From the NCBI GenBank assembly GCA_031376305.1, contig JANMDM010000337.1, positions 1-46,292 on the forward strand: a DNA stretch of 46,292 nt. The letters are read 5' to 3'. Shown here one piece after another: positions 28,251 to 33,866 of the stretch. The DNA comes from Pseudomonadota bacterium (lineage in GTDB: Bacteria; Pseudomonadota; Alphaproteobacteria; Rhodobacterales; Rhodobacteraceae). Position numbers and translations under genes: made by a program. How positions within the stretch are numbered: position 1 is the first letter of the stretch; each line of letters starts with the position of its first letter. The notes beneath the pieces are model-generated. The model did not search any database. It saw nothing but the letters and a program-made list of their open reading frames with translations, and was not told the DNA's origin.

Positions 28251-29165
28251 TCACGGCGCAAGGACAATTTCCGCAATGCTGGTCGAAGAAAACGGCATAA
28301 AGTTATTGTCCGAAATCAATGTGGCTTTCGTCTGCCCCGCTGCATCCTTCCAAACATCCAAGCCTTCAAAATTGCCATAGTCCCCCGGCGCTGTTTGCAT
28401 CACAATCTCGGGGGCGGAAAACCCGTTGCTGGTGACCTGATAGGAACTCAGCCTGCTGGTATAACCCCAGATCAGCGAAAAATCCCGCTCCAGAACATAT
28501 AACCTGCCATCCGGCCCATAGTCAGCATCCGTGGCCTGAAAGGCCCCATCCGTGGCAAGATCCGGCCCGTCACGCCAGACTTTCTCACCCGAATGGACAA
28601 GGGTCTGGTAGCCGCGATTGCCCTGCGACAACCGCTCAAGAATGGCCATGATCTGCCCGCTGGAGGAGATGCAGATCGCCTCCATACCCCTATTCCCCCA
28701 AAGATCGCGGAAGCGGTCCCAATCCTGAAGCGGCGTTGGGGCCATGTCAGGCGGCGAAAAGCTAGCCACTCTTGCATAGCCTTCAAACGCCACTATCAGC
28801 CTGCCATCGGGTGCAATTCGCAACGCTTCTGCATCCGAATGGAACCCAAGCGCCGGGTCGCCATTATTGTCCAGAAACCGGTTCTGGCTTTCAGTCTTAA
28901 CCGATAAGATATCGCCCGCGGCATTCCGCGTCAGGCTGGCGGCGAACAAAACCCCGCCATCGCTGATCGCCAGAAGCGCGTTGCCACCCCTGGTTATCTC
29001 GATCCCCGACATGCCGCCAAAGTCACTATCGTGCTCCGGCCAATCGACGCTATGCAGGCGGAGCCTATGATCATCTGCGGAATTGCGAATCTTTCCCAGC
29101 GCCGTGACGGCGCCCAAGCCGACGATCAACGCCAGGATTGCAAATTTAACGCGCGGCTTTGCCAA
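28251..29165 (-). CDS. Esterase-like activity of phytase family (beta-propeller) protein
   Basis: FGGMSGI, ISD.G, DAEAL, N.GMEA, LYVLER, NFEGL, ISDNNF. Confidence 0.82.
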   Translation of the reverse strand: MAKPRVKFAILALIVGLGAVTALGKIRNSADDHRLRLHSVDWPEHDSDFGGMSGIEITRGGNALLAISDGGVLFAASLTRNAAGDILSVKTESQNRFLDNNGDPALGFHSDAEALRIAPDGRLIVAFEGYARVASFSPPDMAPTPLQDWDRFRDLWGNRGMEAICISSSGQIMAILERLSQGNRGYQTLVHSGEKVWRDGPDLATDGAFQATDADYGPDGRLYVLERDFSLIWGYTSRLSSYQVTSNGFSAPEIVMQTAPGDYGNFEGLDVWKDAAGQTKATLISDNNFMPFSSTSIAEIVLAP

Positions 29166-30337: not shown

Positions 30338-31368
30338 TCATGGCTGGCGCCGTATCGGGGCCAGCTGCGGTTTGTCCCAGGGGGACGACCCCTCCAAAAA
30401 ATATCGCGCCAACCGCAGCGCCCGCGCAGCGTAAAGCCCCTGGCGGGGATCGGTTCGCGGCGCACGGCTGACAATCCAGCCGGCTGACGCGAAGCACCTC
30501 AAAAGCACAAATAAAGTCAAAGTATTAGCATCCAGATCCGGGGCTGGTCGTGCCCGCCGGTACCCCGCAACCAAAGCCCCGGCAATCGGCGCGAGGTTCG
30601 GTTCCTCAAGGTTTTGCACCAGCGCTGTGCCCAGATCATAAAGCCGGAAGCCAAACCCGCCGTCGTCAAAATCGATAAGCGCCAACCCGTCGGGCGTCTC
30701 CACAACATTCTCACGCAGCACATCGGCATGGATCAGCCCAAAGTCGCCCCCCTGCGCGCGCATCGCCGCCAACTGTGTCCTTGCGGTGTCGCGCGCCGCA
30801 AGGATGATCTGGCGGTCTGCGGGGCCAAACGCCGGATTTTCCCAGAACCGACCCAATGCGGGTCATCGCCAAGCAACCCGTTTTGGTCCCAGACCGGGCG
30901 GCTCAGCGTCGTGCCAACATCCAGCCCATCGCTCACCGAATGCAGCCGACCCAGCAGGTGCCCAAGGTTTTCGTACAGCCCTTCTTGTCGCGCCAGATCG
31001 CCCGGCAAGTTTTGATCTGCCCGCCCGATTGCGGCCCCGTCCATCCAGGACACGCAACTGGCGATCCGATCCCCCGCCATCGCCGTCAATCCGCCCCGGC
31101 GGGTCAGCAATGGCGCAGGCACCAGCACGCCCTGTCGCGCCAATGCGGCGGTCCATGCCAACTCTGCCTCAATCGCAGTGCGACTCTGGTAACCGGGCCG
31201 GTGCAACCTCAGCGCTGCCTGGCGCCCGTCGTCAAGCCAGACCCGAAAAACGGCATTTTCGCGAATCTGCACCAGTTGCGGCGGCCGCACCGCGACCCCC
31301 CAATAGGCAAGTGCGGTACCCGCCATGGCCGTCGCGCGCTCGGCGGATATCGGCGCAGGCGCCGTCAC
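30338..31368 (-). pseudogene. APH / homoserine kinase type II-like phosphotransferase, split by a frameshift
   Basis: The N-half (RENAVF, ALRLHRPGY, EL.W, LGRLH) and C-half (GRFW, GLIHAD...ENV, LIDFDD.GFG...YDL) are in different frames and join at DDPHW|GRFW near 30853. GTG start at 31368 has GGAGG. Confidence 0.8.
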
Positions 31369-31473
31369 GCCGCACCTCCGTACGGCGATGGTGCAAACCC
31401 TGTGACCCTCCACAGGCCGCCGCCATCGGCAGCCCAGGCATTTCCAAACCCGCACCCCAAATTCACCAAAGAC

Positions 31474-31893
31474 TCACTCATCCTCGATCTTGCCACGCAA
31501 TTCCTTCACCTCTCCCCGCGCGGTTTTTGCCGCCAGTCGCCGCCGCTTGCTTCCCAATGTAGGCTTCGTCGGCACCCGCCGCTTGGGGGCCACCAAGGCG
31601 GCGCGTATCAACTCGGCCAGCCGTTCCCGCGCCAGTTCGCGGTTTTGCACCTGGCTGCGCGTCTCTTCGGCGCGGATCAGGATCGCGCCCTCCAGCGTCC
31701 AGCGCCGCCCCGCCAGCCGCTTCAACCGTGACTTCACCGCCGCCGTCAGATGTGGGCTGCGCTCGGCCTCGAACCGCAGATCCACCGCGGTCGACACCTT
31801 GTTCACATTTTGCCCACCGGGGCCCGAGGCCCGTGAAAAACTTTCGCTCAGTTCCCAGTCCGCAATCGAAATCTGATCATTGATCCACAACAT
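31474..31893 (-). CDS. arfB: Alternative ribosome-rescue peptidyl-tRNA hydrolase ArfB
   Basis: RASGPGGQNVNKVSTAV, RSQ..NR and a basic C-terminal tail PKRRVPTKPT.GSKRRRL..K. Confidence 0.95.
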   Translation of the reverse strand: MLWINDQISIADWELSESFSRASGPGGQNVNKVSTAVDLRFEAERSPHLTAAVKSRLKRLAGRRWTLEGAILIRAEETRSQVQNRELARERLAELIRAALVAPKRRVPTKPTLGSKRRRLAAKTARGEVKELRGKIEDE

Positions 31894-31950
31894 GGCCCCG
31901 ACCTTAACGGATTTCCCGACCCGTCCGAAAGCCGTTCGATACCCGCCACA

Positions 31951-32011: not shown

Positions 32012-32046
32012 CGGAAAGGGCCGCCCCGAGTTAGGGCGGCCCTCCG
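32012..32046 (-). terminator. GC-rich hairpin with a weak U-tract upstream of arfB
   Basis: The minus strand reads AGGGCCGCCC-TAACTCG-GGGCGGCCCT-TTCCG. Confidence 0.7.
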
Positions 32047-32123
32047 AGATCTAAGGAGATGGACCAGTTAGGGTGCCGAAGTCGGCATGGCCCAGTCAGA
32101 GTTCTAAGCCTTCAGGTCTGCCC

Positions 32124-32180
32124 TCAGGCCACGGCCTCCCTGACTGTCCTGACACCTCTCTCCAATATCACTCTCGACAC
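32124..32180 (-). CDS. Unannotated 18-aa small ORF MSRVILERGVRTVREAVA
   Basis: GTG at 32180 directly follows GAAAGGAGGTGATCCA; TGA stop at 32124-32126. Confidence 0.55.
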   Translation of the reverse strand: MSRVILERGVRTVREAVA

Positions 32181-32208
32181 TGGATCACCTCCTTTCACTT
32201 GGTTGCCG

Positions 32209-32217
32209 TTATCCACA
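32209..32217 (+). promoter_or_regulatory. Perfect DnaA box TTATCCACA
   Basis: Exact 9-mer consensus match, located at the predicted start site of the small transcript. Confidence 0.45.
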
Positions 32218-32244
32218 GGCTGCCACAGATTTTGTGTTTGTCAA
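32217..32244 (-). promoter_or_regulatory. Candidate sigma70 promoter
   Basis: TTGACA (32244-32239)-N16-CAGCCT. A second candidate, TTCAAA-N17-(TGG)TATAAA, overlaps the end of the upstream gene. Confidence 0.4.
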
Positions 32245-32250
32245 AAGGTT

Positions 32251-32874
32251 TTATACCACCTTTTCTGTCAATTTTGAAACAATCACCCGGAATGGGATCA
32301 GCGCCACGACGGCAAGCGACAGTTTCACCAGCCAATCGGCGGTGCCAAGCGACACCCAAAGCGGCACGTCTGGCCCCGATCCCAGAAGCGGCAGTACCTC
32401 GCCCGCCCAGCCCACATTATTGCTTGGCTCAAGAAACGTCAGGAATCCGGCAAAGGCGATGGTGAAGAAGATCACGGTGTCCAGTGAAGCTCCCGCAAGG
32501 GTCGAGATAAAGGGCGCGCGCCACCAGCCCTGCGTACGAAACCGGTTGAAGACATGAATGTCGACAAGCTGTGCGGCCAAAAACGCCAAACCCGACCCCA
32601 TCGCCACGCGCAGTGTCACCAGAGGGCCGAACTGCCCGGCAATCTGCGACCCGATCAGCGAGCATAGGACGCCGACGACAAAGCCCGCAATCACCACGGT
32701 ACGCGCCGCCTTGGCGCCTTGCAGGCGGTTGGTCAGGTCGGTGACAAGGAAAGAGAAGGGATAGGTGAAGGCCCCAAAGGTCAGCCATTGGCCGTAAAGG
32801 AACTGCACGAGGATATTCGAGGCCACCACGATGGTGGCCATGGCAAGAATGCCAGGGATCAGATTGCGGGTCAT
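32251..32874 (-). CDS. Queuosine precursor transporter (YhhQ/Vut_1 family)
   Basis: ASNILV, TFGAFTYP.SFLVTDL, RVA.GS..AFL.AQL.D, DT.IFF.IAF, D..VK. Confidence 0.9.
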   Translation of the reverse strand: MTRNLIPGILAMATIVVASNILVQFLYGQWLTFGAFTYPFSFLVTDLTNRLQGAKAARTVVIAGFVVGVLCSLIGSQIAGQFGPLVTLRVAMGSGLAFLAAQLVDIHVFNRFRTQGWWRAPFISTLAGASLDTVIFFTIAFAGFLTFLEPSNNVGWAGEVLPLLGSGPDVPLWVSLGTADWLVKLSLAVVALIPFRVIVSKLTEKVV

Positions 32875-32966: not shown

Positions 32967-33866
32967 TTAATCTTTAAGCCTGAAATCCACCAACTCGGTA
33001 TTTAGGATCGGCAAAAAGTTGGTGTCCGAAATCATCGTGGCCCGCAACGCACCGGACGCATCTTTCCAGATCGCCAATCCTTCGAGGTTGCCCAACTCCC
33101 CCGCGCGGGAGGAAAACAACACCTCCTCGTTGAGCCCCCCGTGGTCGTCGAAACTGAACCGTCTGAGGCGCGACATCAGGCCCAAAAGCCCCCAATAATC
33201 CCGCTCCAAAACGTAAAGGCGGCCGTCGGGGCCAAAATCTGCCCCCACCGGTCGCCAACTGCTTTGCTCGGAAATCTCAAAGACCTGGTCCCATGCACCA
33301 CCCTGAAACCGAAACACCGGCACCGCGCTGACGCCCGCCGCGTCCCCCTCGGGCAAGGCATAAAGGCTGCCGTCTTGTGCAATGGCGATGCCCTCAAGGC
33401 CGCTGTTATCCCAAAATTCGGCGAAACCGCCGAAAATTGGCAGGGTTTCCGCCGGGCCACCATTGGCCGGAAACCGCATGACCCGGTGTTCCAGCTCAAA
33501 CGAAACAAACAGATCACCATTCGGCGCCGCCGCCAAACCCTCGGAATCGTCGAAAGGATCAATCAGCGACCGGCCTTCGGCGTCGAGCAGCGGGCGTGGC
33601 GGTCCGCTGATCTCGACGGCGGTGATCGCCCCGTTGTTGTCACGGCGCAACGTCCCTGTAATTACCGCGGCAGAATCGGAAAGTGCGGTAAACGCCATCC
33701 CGTCATCACTGACCTCAAGCCCCGAAAACCCACCGAAACGCGGCGCATCCCCCGCGAGGACAAACCGCCCCACCAGCTCTGCGCCCGATTGCGCATCCGC
33801 CAGCCACGGGCAGATCGCCACCGCGACAGCTGTCAGGATCACTCCGAGGCGAGGACGTTGGCGCAT
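32967..33866 (-). CDS. Esterase-like activity of phytase family protein
   Basis: FGGFSGLE, LSD, DSEGL, VSFE, NSGLEG, LYVLER, NLEGL, ISD.NF, plus a signal peptide. Confidence 0.85.
   Translation of the reverse strand: MRQRPRLGVILTAVAVAICPWLADAQSGAELVGRFVLAGDAPRFGGFSGLEVSDDGMAFTALSDSAAVITGTLRRDNNGAITAVEISGPPRPLLDAEGRSLIDPFDDSEGLAAAPNGDLFVSFELEHRVMRFPANGGPAETLPIFGGFAEFWDNSGLEGIAIAQDGSLYALPEGDAAGVSAVPVFRFQGGAWDQVFEISEQSSWRPVGADFGPDGRLYVLERDYWGLLGLMSRLRRFSFDDHGGLNEEVLFSSRAGELGNLEGLAIWKDASGALRATMISDTNFLPILNTELVDFRLKD

What the first reader, a model, noticed from the sequence alone, without database searches (positions are those of the whole stretch)
32012..32244. Unannotated RNA upstream of arfB with a 17-nt super-Shine-Dalgarno, rare-codon peptide, anti-SD and terminator
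Seen: 32180-32196 on the + strand is CTGGATCACCTCCTTTC, identical to the conserved 16S rRNA 3' end. The minus-strand RNA therefore carries a 17-nt perfect complement (GAAAGGAGGUGAUCCAG) running into a GTG start. The 18-codon ORF is followed by hairpins and a terminator with a weak U-tract, about 120 nt before arfB on the same strand. Known: ArfB rescues stalled ribosomes, and leader ORFs can couple ribosome behaviour to termination. Inference: this is a ribosome-status-sensing leader/attenuator for arfB, a 30S-sequestering small RNA, or an independent small-peptide gene.
Basis: partly seen in the sequence, partly recalled or inferred. Interest (0 to 1): 0.85.

Follow-up and report, generated by a model that had tools for sequence, protein, structure and literature searches.

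The report
Known rreR super-Shine-Dalgarno mini-mRNA gene
This is a copy of rreR, a published tiny gene of Rhodobacteraceae whose RNA matches the tail of 16S ribosomal RNA over 17 bases in front of an 18-codon frame; it likely acts on its own as a ribosome-binding RNA rather than as a switch for the neighbouring rescue gene arfB, and its purpose is still unexplained.

Summary
It is rreR (Hahn et al., PMC5711450): a 17-nt match to the 16S 3' end running into GTG, then 18 codons. The window peptide is 10/18 identical, ungapped, to the published D. shibae RreR. It is also a below-threshold relative of Rfam CC2171.

The arfB attenuator reading is not supported. The element has its own conserved promoter motif (71 of 72 loci) and a covarying terminator. 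A candidate antiterminator does not covary, and the terminator stays favoured by about 19-21 kcal/mol wherever a ribosome is modelled. arfB is directly downstream in 48 of 72 loci against 68 of 71 for the upstream gene, and it shows its own leaderless-type -10 box.

Added here: stop position is fixed but the peptide shows no amino-acid-level selection (pN/pS 0.86), codons 12-18 form a covarying stem, and the anti-SD is predicted to close the SD. Best reading: a stand-alone, weakly translated 30S-binding RNA. No RNA data could be examined. This scan reached the same identification on other DNA before (e1-5134861, e1-5134859).

The parts
32239..32244 (-). -35 hexamer (TTGACA) of the predicted rreR promoter; lies just after the stop of the upstream transporter gene
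   Evidence: TTG-N3-N16/17-nAnnnT in 71 of 72 loci against 4.8 expected from shuffles; TTGACA in 47 of 72
32217..32222 (-). -10 hexamer (CAGCCT; A and T at positions 2 and 6), 16-nt spacer; start site predicted near 32210-32204
   Evidence: spacer 16 in 62, 17 in 9 of 71; start site inferred, Rfam alignment begins at 32204
32013..32210 (-). predicted rreR transcript, about 190-200 nt
   Evidence: promoter and terminator positions; CC2171 match 32018-32204, 39.6 bits, E 5e-7, below gathering score 75; no transcript data
32180..32196 (-). 17-nt extended Shine-Dalgarno, complementary to the 16S 3' end, ending in the G of GTG
32124..32180 (-). rreR ORF, 18 codons, VSRVILERGVRTVREAVA, stop TGA
   Evidence: 10/18 identical to published RreR
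32161..32184 (-). hairpin over the start codon (P2)
   Evidence: predicted; covariation weak (z -1.55, p 0.08)
32093..32146 (-). long stem pairing codons 12-18 with the 3' UTR (P4), capped by a small hairpin that starts at the stop codon (P5)
   Evidence: cognate against swapped duplex energies in 45 dereplicated loci: z -10.1 (P4), -6.1 (P5)
32074..32087 (-). variable hairpin (P6), absent or short in many homologues
32053..32061 (-). anti-SD, predicted to pair with the SD core in the full-length RNA
   Evidence: SD core paired to it with probability above 0.5 in 41 of 44 folds (0.97 in the window); SD is nearly invariant, so covariation cannot be measured
32013..32045 (-). intrinsic-terminator-like hairpin with a weak U-tract
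   Evidence: about -24 kcal/mol; arms covary, z -14.7; 4 T in 8 nt
31901..31906 (-). predicted -10 box (TAAGGT) of arfB's own promoter, 7 nt before its ATG (leaderless type)
   Evidence: TAnnnT 5-8 nt before the ATG in 20 of 49 arfB starts against 1-2 of 49 in six control windows; SD-like motif in 2 of 49
31474..31893 (-). arfB (neighbour, not part of the RNA)
32251..32874 (-). queuosine precursor transporter gene (Vut_1/YhhQ-like; upstream neighbour)
   Evidence: PF02592, TIGR00697 above cut-off

Best explanation
The element is rreR, a likely stand-alone small mRNA of about 190-200 nt with its own predicted promoter and terminator, whose working part is likely the RNA-ribosome encounter rather than the peptide. 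Shown here: 17-nt 16S match, GTG start, fixed 18-codon frame, covarying stems, no amino-acid-level selection. Shown only for the counterpart rreB in Bradyrhizobium: tight 30S association, weak translation caused by the long SD and GTG, and start-codon-dependent decay. Inferred mechanism: a 30S subunit docks on the long SD while the RNA is still being made or through the unpaired 5' end of the SD; once the anti-SD 120 nt downstream is made, the free RNA folds shut. The 17-bp duplex slows the step from initiation to elongation; the few ribosomes that escape unwind the stems up to the fixed stop and commit the RNA to decay. The RNA's level and fold would then report on, or finely buffer, free 30S subunits. 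arfB is likely a neighbour with its own promoter.
For: Identity; locus L172 encodes the published peptide exactly. Promoter. Terminator and stems. All 23 exact-pattern hits in the own family (22 relatives plus this genome) give 18 codons with no length filter. Stop codons TAG 30, TGA 28, TAA 15 in 73 loci; pN/pS 0.86 over codons 2-18 and 1.0 over 13-18, no lower than in the two other frames; Glu7 always GAG, Thr12 ACA in 65 of 70. Among 90 genomes with an SD hit within 4 kb upstream of arfB, the variants are the exact motif (52), an A-to-G change that keeps a G-U pair with 16S (36) and an ATG start (2) (split worked out from the lists). Outside Rhodobacteraceae the downstream genes are unrelated and often convergent.
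Against: No transcript, ribosome or start-site data for this organism were examined. 30S binding and translation were shown for rreB, not rreR. arfB follows directly in 80 of 105 family genomes, the U-tract is weak, and in several homologues the arfB ATG lies under 20 nt after the U-tract, so some read-through is possible. 29 of 49 arfB starts lack the strict -10 box. With 18 codons the pN/pS test has little power, and stem constraints could mask selection on a few residues (L6, E7, V10 are nearly invariant). Overexpression of rreB gave no growth phenotype, so the biological output is not established.
Confidence: 0.6

Rival explanations
1. rreR is a leader that couples ribosome behaviour to arfB transcription: stalling on the leader would favour read-through of the weak terminator.
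For: arfB directly downstream on the same strand in 80 of 105 family genomes; weak U-tract; the segment after the stop codon can pair with the terminator 5' arm (-13.0 kcal/mol in the window; mean -11.7 against -7.1 for shuffled arms); Hahn et al. speculate that ribosomes trapped on rreB need rescue.
Against: That pairing does not covary (cognate -11.68, swapped -11.98, z +1.2) while five other helices do or tend to. With ribosome footprints at 10 codon positions or none, the terminator is favoured by 19.6-21.4 kcal/mol in the window and about 19 on average in 45 homologues. In the own genus arfB is directly downstream in 3 of 14 loci (one too short to tell), replaced by S49 peptidase, gyrase-B-type ATPase, Fic or a convergent DUF4166 gene. 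arfB has its own -10 signature. No arfB near any non-Rhodobacterales locus and no smpB in 121 loci. Equilibrium folding cannot exclude a kinetic switch.
Confidence: 0.1
2. The functional product is the 18-residue peptide, kept at very low level by the long SD, the GTG start and the anti-SD, as in tightly repressed small-protein or type I toxin mRNAs.
For: Fixed length and near-invariant L6, E7, V10, T12; rreB is translated; long-range SD occlusion is typical of such mRNAs (established knowledge, recalled).
Against: pN/pS near 1 and synonymous positions frozen where residues are conserved; RreB and RreR share no sequence and are unstructured; frames after the same SD range from 9 to 27 codons in other lineages; presumed overproduction of RreB had no growth effect.
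Confidence: 0.17
3. The RNA is a trans-acting 30S sink or 16S 3'-end chaperone that stores or proofreads small subunits under some stress; translation is incidental.
For: 17-nt complementarity kept by G-U-preserving variants; rreB with the start codon changed to a stop still binds ribosomes and is more stable.
Against: Ribosomes far outnumber the RNA and 20-fold overexpression had no growth effect; the fixed stop position argues that translation matters.
Confidence: 0.13

Closest known systems
rreR (Hahn et al. 2016/2017, RNA Biol 14:1353, PMC5711450); RreR of Dinoroseobacter shibae = SP-3 in PMC7217052
   Same: Same lineage, 17-nt 16S complement ending in the G of GTG, 18 codons, 10/18 identical residues without gaps.
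   Different: Nothing of kind. The paper gives no promoter, terminator, structure, gene order or selection analysis for rreR in the text read (parts 1-4 of 6); those are added here.
rreB of Bradyrhizobiaceae (same paper)
   Same: Same ribosome-binding site design; stand-alone RNA with promoter and terminator.
   Different: 14-codon unrelated peptide, 165 nt, next to tRNA-Gly; SD predicted to be closed by a local hairpin, whereas rreR also has a long-range anti-SD.
Rfam RF01867 CC2171 (Caulobacter sRNA; Northern-validated in Methylorubrum, bioRxiv 10.1101/2022.01.24.477521)
   Same: Model consensus begins with the same extended SD and GTG and ends in a similar terminator; window hit E 5e-7.
   Different: 39.6 bits against gathering score 75; the middle of the RNA does not align; catalogued as non-coding.
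Ribosome-dependent transcription attenuators (trpL type; recalled)
   Same: Short ORF, hairpins and a terminator upstream of a same-strand gene.
   Different: No covarying antiterminator, no modelled switch, downstream gene interchangeable and with its own promoter signature.

Membership tests
rreR / rre genes | 16-17 nt complementarity to the 16S rRNA 3' end | tested here: met
   17 nt against 16S ends of relatives; own 16S not assembled
rreR / rre genes | last base of the complement is the first base of a GTG start | tested here: met
rreR / rre genes | 18-codon ORF homologous to RreR | tested here: met
   10/18 identical to the published peptide
rreR / rre genes | conserved in the Rhodobacter/Roseobacter lineage | tested here: met
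   named Ruegeria, Sulfitobacter, Loktanella, Dinoroseobacter, Defluviimonas records carry homologous 18-codon frames in the same gene order
rreR / rre genes | transcribed, 30S-bound, weakly translated (shown for rreB) | not testable with these tools
   no RNA run was listed for this stretch
Rfam RF01867 CC2171 | score at or above gathering threshold 75 bits | tested here: not met
   39.6 bits; other rreR and rreB loci 32-43 bits; Caulobacter, Brevundimonas, Methylobacterium, Bosea loci 88-120 bits
Ribosome-dependent attenuator | conserved antiterminator exclusive with the terminator | tested here: not met
   no covariation
Ribosome-dependent attenuator | ribosome position changes the terminator/antiterminator balance | tested here: not met
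   minimum-free-energy model only; kinetics not modelled
Ribosome-dependent attenuator | downstream gene depends on the leader promoter | tested here: inconclusive
   own -10 signature in 20 of 49 arfB starts; no start-site data

The most novel reading that the evidence does not exclude
rreB, rreR, CC2171 and probably Rfam Ms_IGR-5 of Actinobacteria are one widespread class of ribosome-gauge RNAs: the act of translating to a fixed stop, not the peptide, flips a conserved fold, and in Rhodobacteraceae a leaky terminator passes that signal on as extra arfB transcription when ribosomes are stuck.
Probability: 0.12. Interest if true: 0.7.

Novelty: already known. Interest (0 to 1): 0.22.

Why it matters
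As a gene it is known. What remains open is the function of a widespread RNA design that grips the whole 16S tail. The analysis narrows the question: test the RNA fold and the stop position rather than the peptide, and treat arfB as a probable neighbour with a separate promoter. If the class proved to be a gauge of ribosome status, it would be a new layer of translation control; nothing here shows that.

Tried and rejected
rRNA remnant or mis-assembly: rejected; only 17 nt match, on the opposite strand, single-copy and in conserved gene order. Rfam at gathering score and ARAGORN over the window: nothing. The generic promoter/terminator scan missed both signals; they came from the alignment. 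RNAalifold on the MAFFT alignment gave a poor consensus because the 3' half is out of register; replaced by anchored duplex tests (4 of 73 loci dropped for want of an anchor, 69 dereplicated to 45, 2 more dropped; several anchors were misplaced and fixed). The 'gap' column of the ribosome walk is invalid (the constraint blocked both terminator arms); it was redone. Anti-SD pairing with codons 6-9 instead of the SD: 0 of 44 folds. Sequencing runs: no RNA holder was listed, so no reads were laid. Link to ribosome rescue outside Rhodobacterales: no smpB in 121 loci, no tmRNA in 54 loci; upstream neighbours of 49 loci were mixed, with one RF3 and one gltX. Likeness of the rreR promoter to rRNA promoters: inconclusive, the 850-nt stretches fetched held no clear rRNA promoter. 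Follow-up functional work on rre genes: not found in three searches, which cover only the open library.

Full report
Observation. The own assembly showed no 16S gene in three motif searches, so the comparison was made with relatives: 5 of 5 genomes searched have this 16S end, and in two read out the match is exactly 17 nt. It is the only perfect copy in 3.24 Mb; 0.0003 would be expected. On the minus strand its last base is the G of a GTG that opens 18 codons, 32180-32124, six of them rare here. The region folds with z -2.82. The terminator-like hairpin ends at 32013, 119 nt before arfB. Upstream lies a queuosine precursor transporter gene.

Identity. Hahn et al. [quoted passage not shown] The supplement of PMC7217052 (passages and supplement rows seen) gives the D. 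shibae RreR as VSKKVLERGVGTTGEARL; the window peptide is 10/18 identical without gaps, and locus L172 encodes the published peptide exactly. Rfam has no hit at gathering score, but CC2171 (RF01867) aligns at 32018-32204 with 39.6 bits, E 5e-7. It passes its threshold at the same SD motif in 4 of 20 loci scanned (Caulobacter, Brevundimonas, Methylobacterium, Bosea) and scores 28-51 bits in 9 of 16 further loci. CC2171 was Northern-validated in Methylorubrum (bioRxiv 10.1101/2022.01.24.477521, passages). The shared SD and terminator probably drive most of these scores, so common descent of the middles is not shown.

Distribution. The exact 18-nt motif is in 13 of 15 same-genus and 22 of 36 same-family genomes; all 23 family hits including this genome give 18 codons. 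With one mismatch 127 of 160 family genomes match (25 matches were not listed and some hits are chance). A collection scan estimated about 4100 stored stretches and returned 120. Most are alphaproteobacterial with frames of 14-27 codons; some records labelled Burkholderiales, Planctomycetota, Krumholzibacteriia, Methylomirabilis and Lujinxingiaceae also show the motif, a 9-26 codon frame and a terminator-like stem by inspection; five are longer frames or inside genes and were treated as chance (L039, L064, L079, L089, L091).

Anatomy. A promoter motif with a 16-17 nt spacer precedes the SD in 71 of 72 loci, against 4.8 in shuffles; in the window it is at 32244-32217, so the RNA would start near 32210-32204 (inferred). 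Cognate against swapped duplex energies in 45 dereplicated loci support the terminator (z -14.7), a stem between codons 12-18 and the 3' UTR (z -10.1), a hairpin starting at the stop codon (z -6.1) and a short stem at codons 8-11 (z -2.8 in 43 loci); the start-codon hairpin is weak (z -1.55). Relatedness inflates these z values. The anti-SD pairs with the SD at -10 kcal/mol or better in 41 of 43 loci and closes it in 41 of 44 full-length folds.

Peptide or RNA. In 73 loci chosen by the SD pattern and a 17-19 codon filter all frames have 18 codons, and the stop codon varies freely (TAG 30, TGA 28, TAA 15). Over 70 distinct ORFs pN/pS is 0.86 (codons 2-18), 0.72 (2-12) and 1.0 (13-18), not lower than in the shifted frames (0.75, 0.72 for 2-18). 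Conserved residues use one codon (GAG 70 of 70; ACA 65; AGA at codon 3 in 61). The constraint is therefore at nucleotide level plus stop position. Whether the rare codons matter as codons or as unpaired purine-rich RNA cannot be separated here. The test is weak on 18 codons.

Is it a leader for arfB? For: arfB follows within 400 nt in 80 of 105 family genomes with a listed canonical SD variant (10 at 400-4000 nt, 13 unlinked or on another contig, 2 without arfB, which did not check the ORF of each hit). The U-tract is weak, and the segment after the stop can pair with the terminator 5' arm. Against: that pairing does not covary (z +1.2); modelled ribosome footprints leave the terminator favoured by about 19-21 kcal/mol at every position; the upstream transporter gene is the more faithful neighbour (68 of 71 against 48 of 72; the latter set over-represents the own genus, where arfB is direct in 3 of 14); other genes, one convergent, replace arfB; and 20 of 49 arfB starts have TAnnnT 5-8 nt before the ATG against 1-2 of 49 in control windows, with an SD-like motif in 2 of 49, the pattern of a leaderless transcript (established knowledge). 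In the window this box is at 31906-31901. Outside Rhodobacterales no arfB or smpB lies near the motif and downstream genes are unrelated and often convergent. A review of ribosome rescue (PMC8012679, passages) showed no account of arfB regulation for the terms searched.

Mechanism. Shown for rreB: 30S co-sedimentation, need of the 5' SD extension, weak translation due to SD and GTG, half-life rising from 10 to 37 min when the start codon is removed, no growth effect of overexpression. Inferred for rreR: 30S docking on the nascent or seed-exposed SD, closure by the anti-SD in free RNA, rare escape into elongation that unwinds the stems to the fixed stop and promotes decay. I put 0.6 on this stand-alone, RNA-centred reading, 0.17 on a functional peptide, 0.13 on a pure 30S sink and 0.10 on an arfB attenuator. 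No expression data were examined.

Novelty. Already known as a gene; function open. The earlier notes of this scan were consulted after the identification was made and agree with it. Three literature searches found no functional follow-up; subscription papers and unseen figures may hold more.

Noticed in passing
L117:123-325 (-), record labelled Candidatus Methylomirabilis: The extended-SD element there scores 67.7 bits (gathering 45) against Rfam Ms_IGR-5 (RF02471), whose consensus itself begins with a long SD-like tract. The uncharacterized mycobacterial sRNA IGR-5 (passages) may be an rre-type RNA.
   Followed up: partly
window 31474-31906 (-) and homologues: arfB of Rhodobacteraceae looks leaderless: -10 box 6-7 nt before the ATG in 20 of 49 starts and almost no SD.
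   Followed up: partly
window 30338-31455 (-): The phosphotransferase (APH family, PF01636) gene after arfB is split over two overlapping frames, 30733-31455 and 30338-30856: a frameshift or assembly error.
   Followed up: no
window 28251-29165 (-) and 32967-33866 (-): Two phytase-like esterase (PF13449) paralogues within 5 kb.
   Followed up: no
L040, L053, L056, L059, L071, L130, L141 (Planctomycetota); L055, L065, L142 (Burkholderiales); L070, L115: Same extended SD plus GTG, short frame and terminator-like stem outside Alphaproteobacteria; extends the published range if the bins are right.
   Followed up: partly
L036, L127, L134: Alphaproteobacterial-type rre frames in records labelled Cytophagales, Hydrogenophaga and Parcubacteria; possibly mis-binned contigs.
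   Followed up: no
G093, G153, G158, G065, G094, G118, G096, G021: These genomes list two canonical SD-variant hits; possible second rre copies.
   Followed up: no
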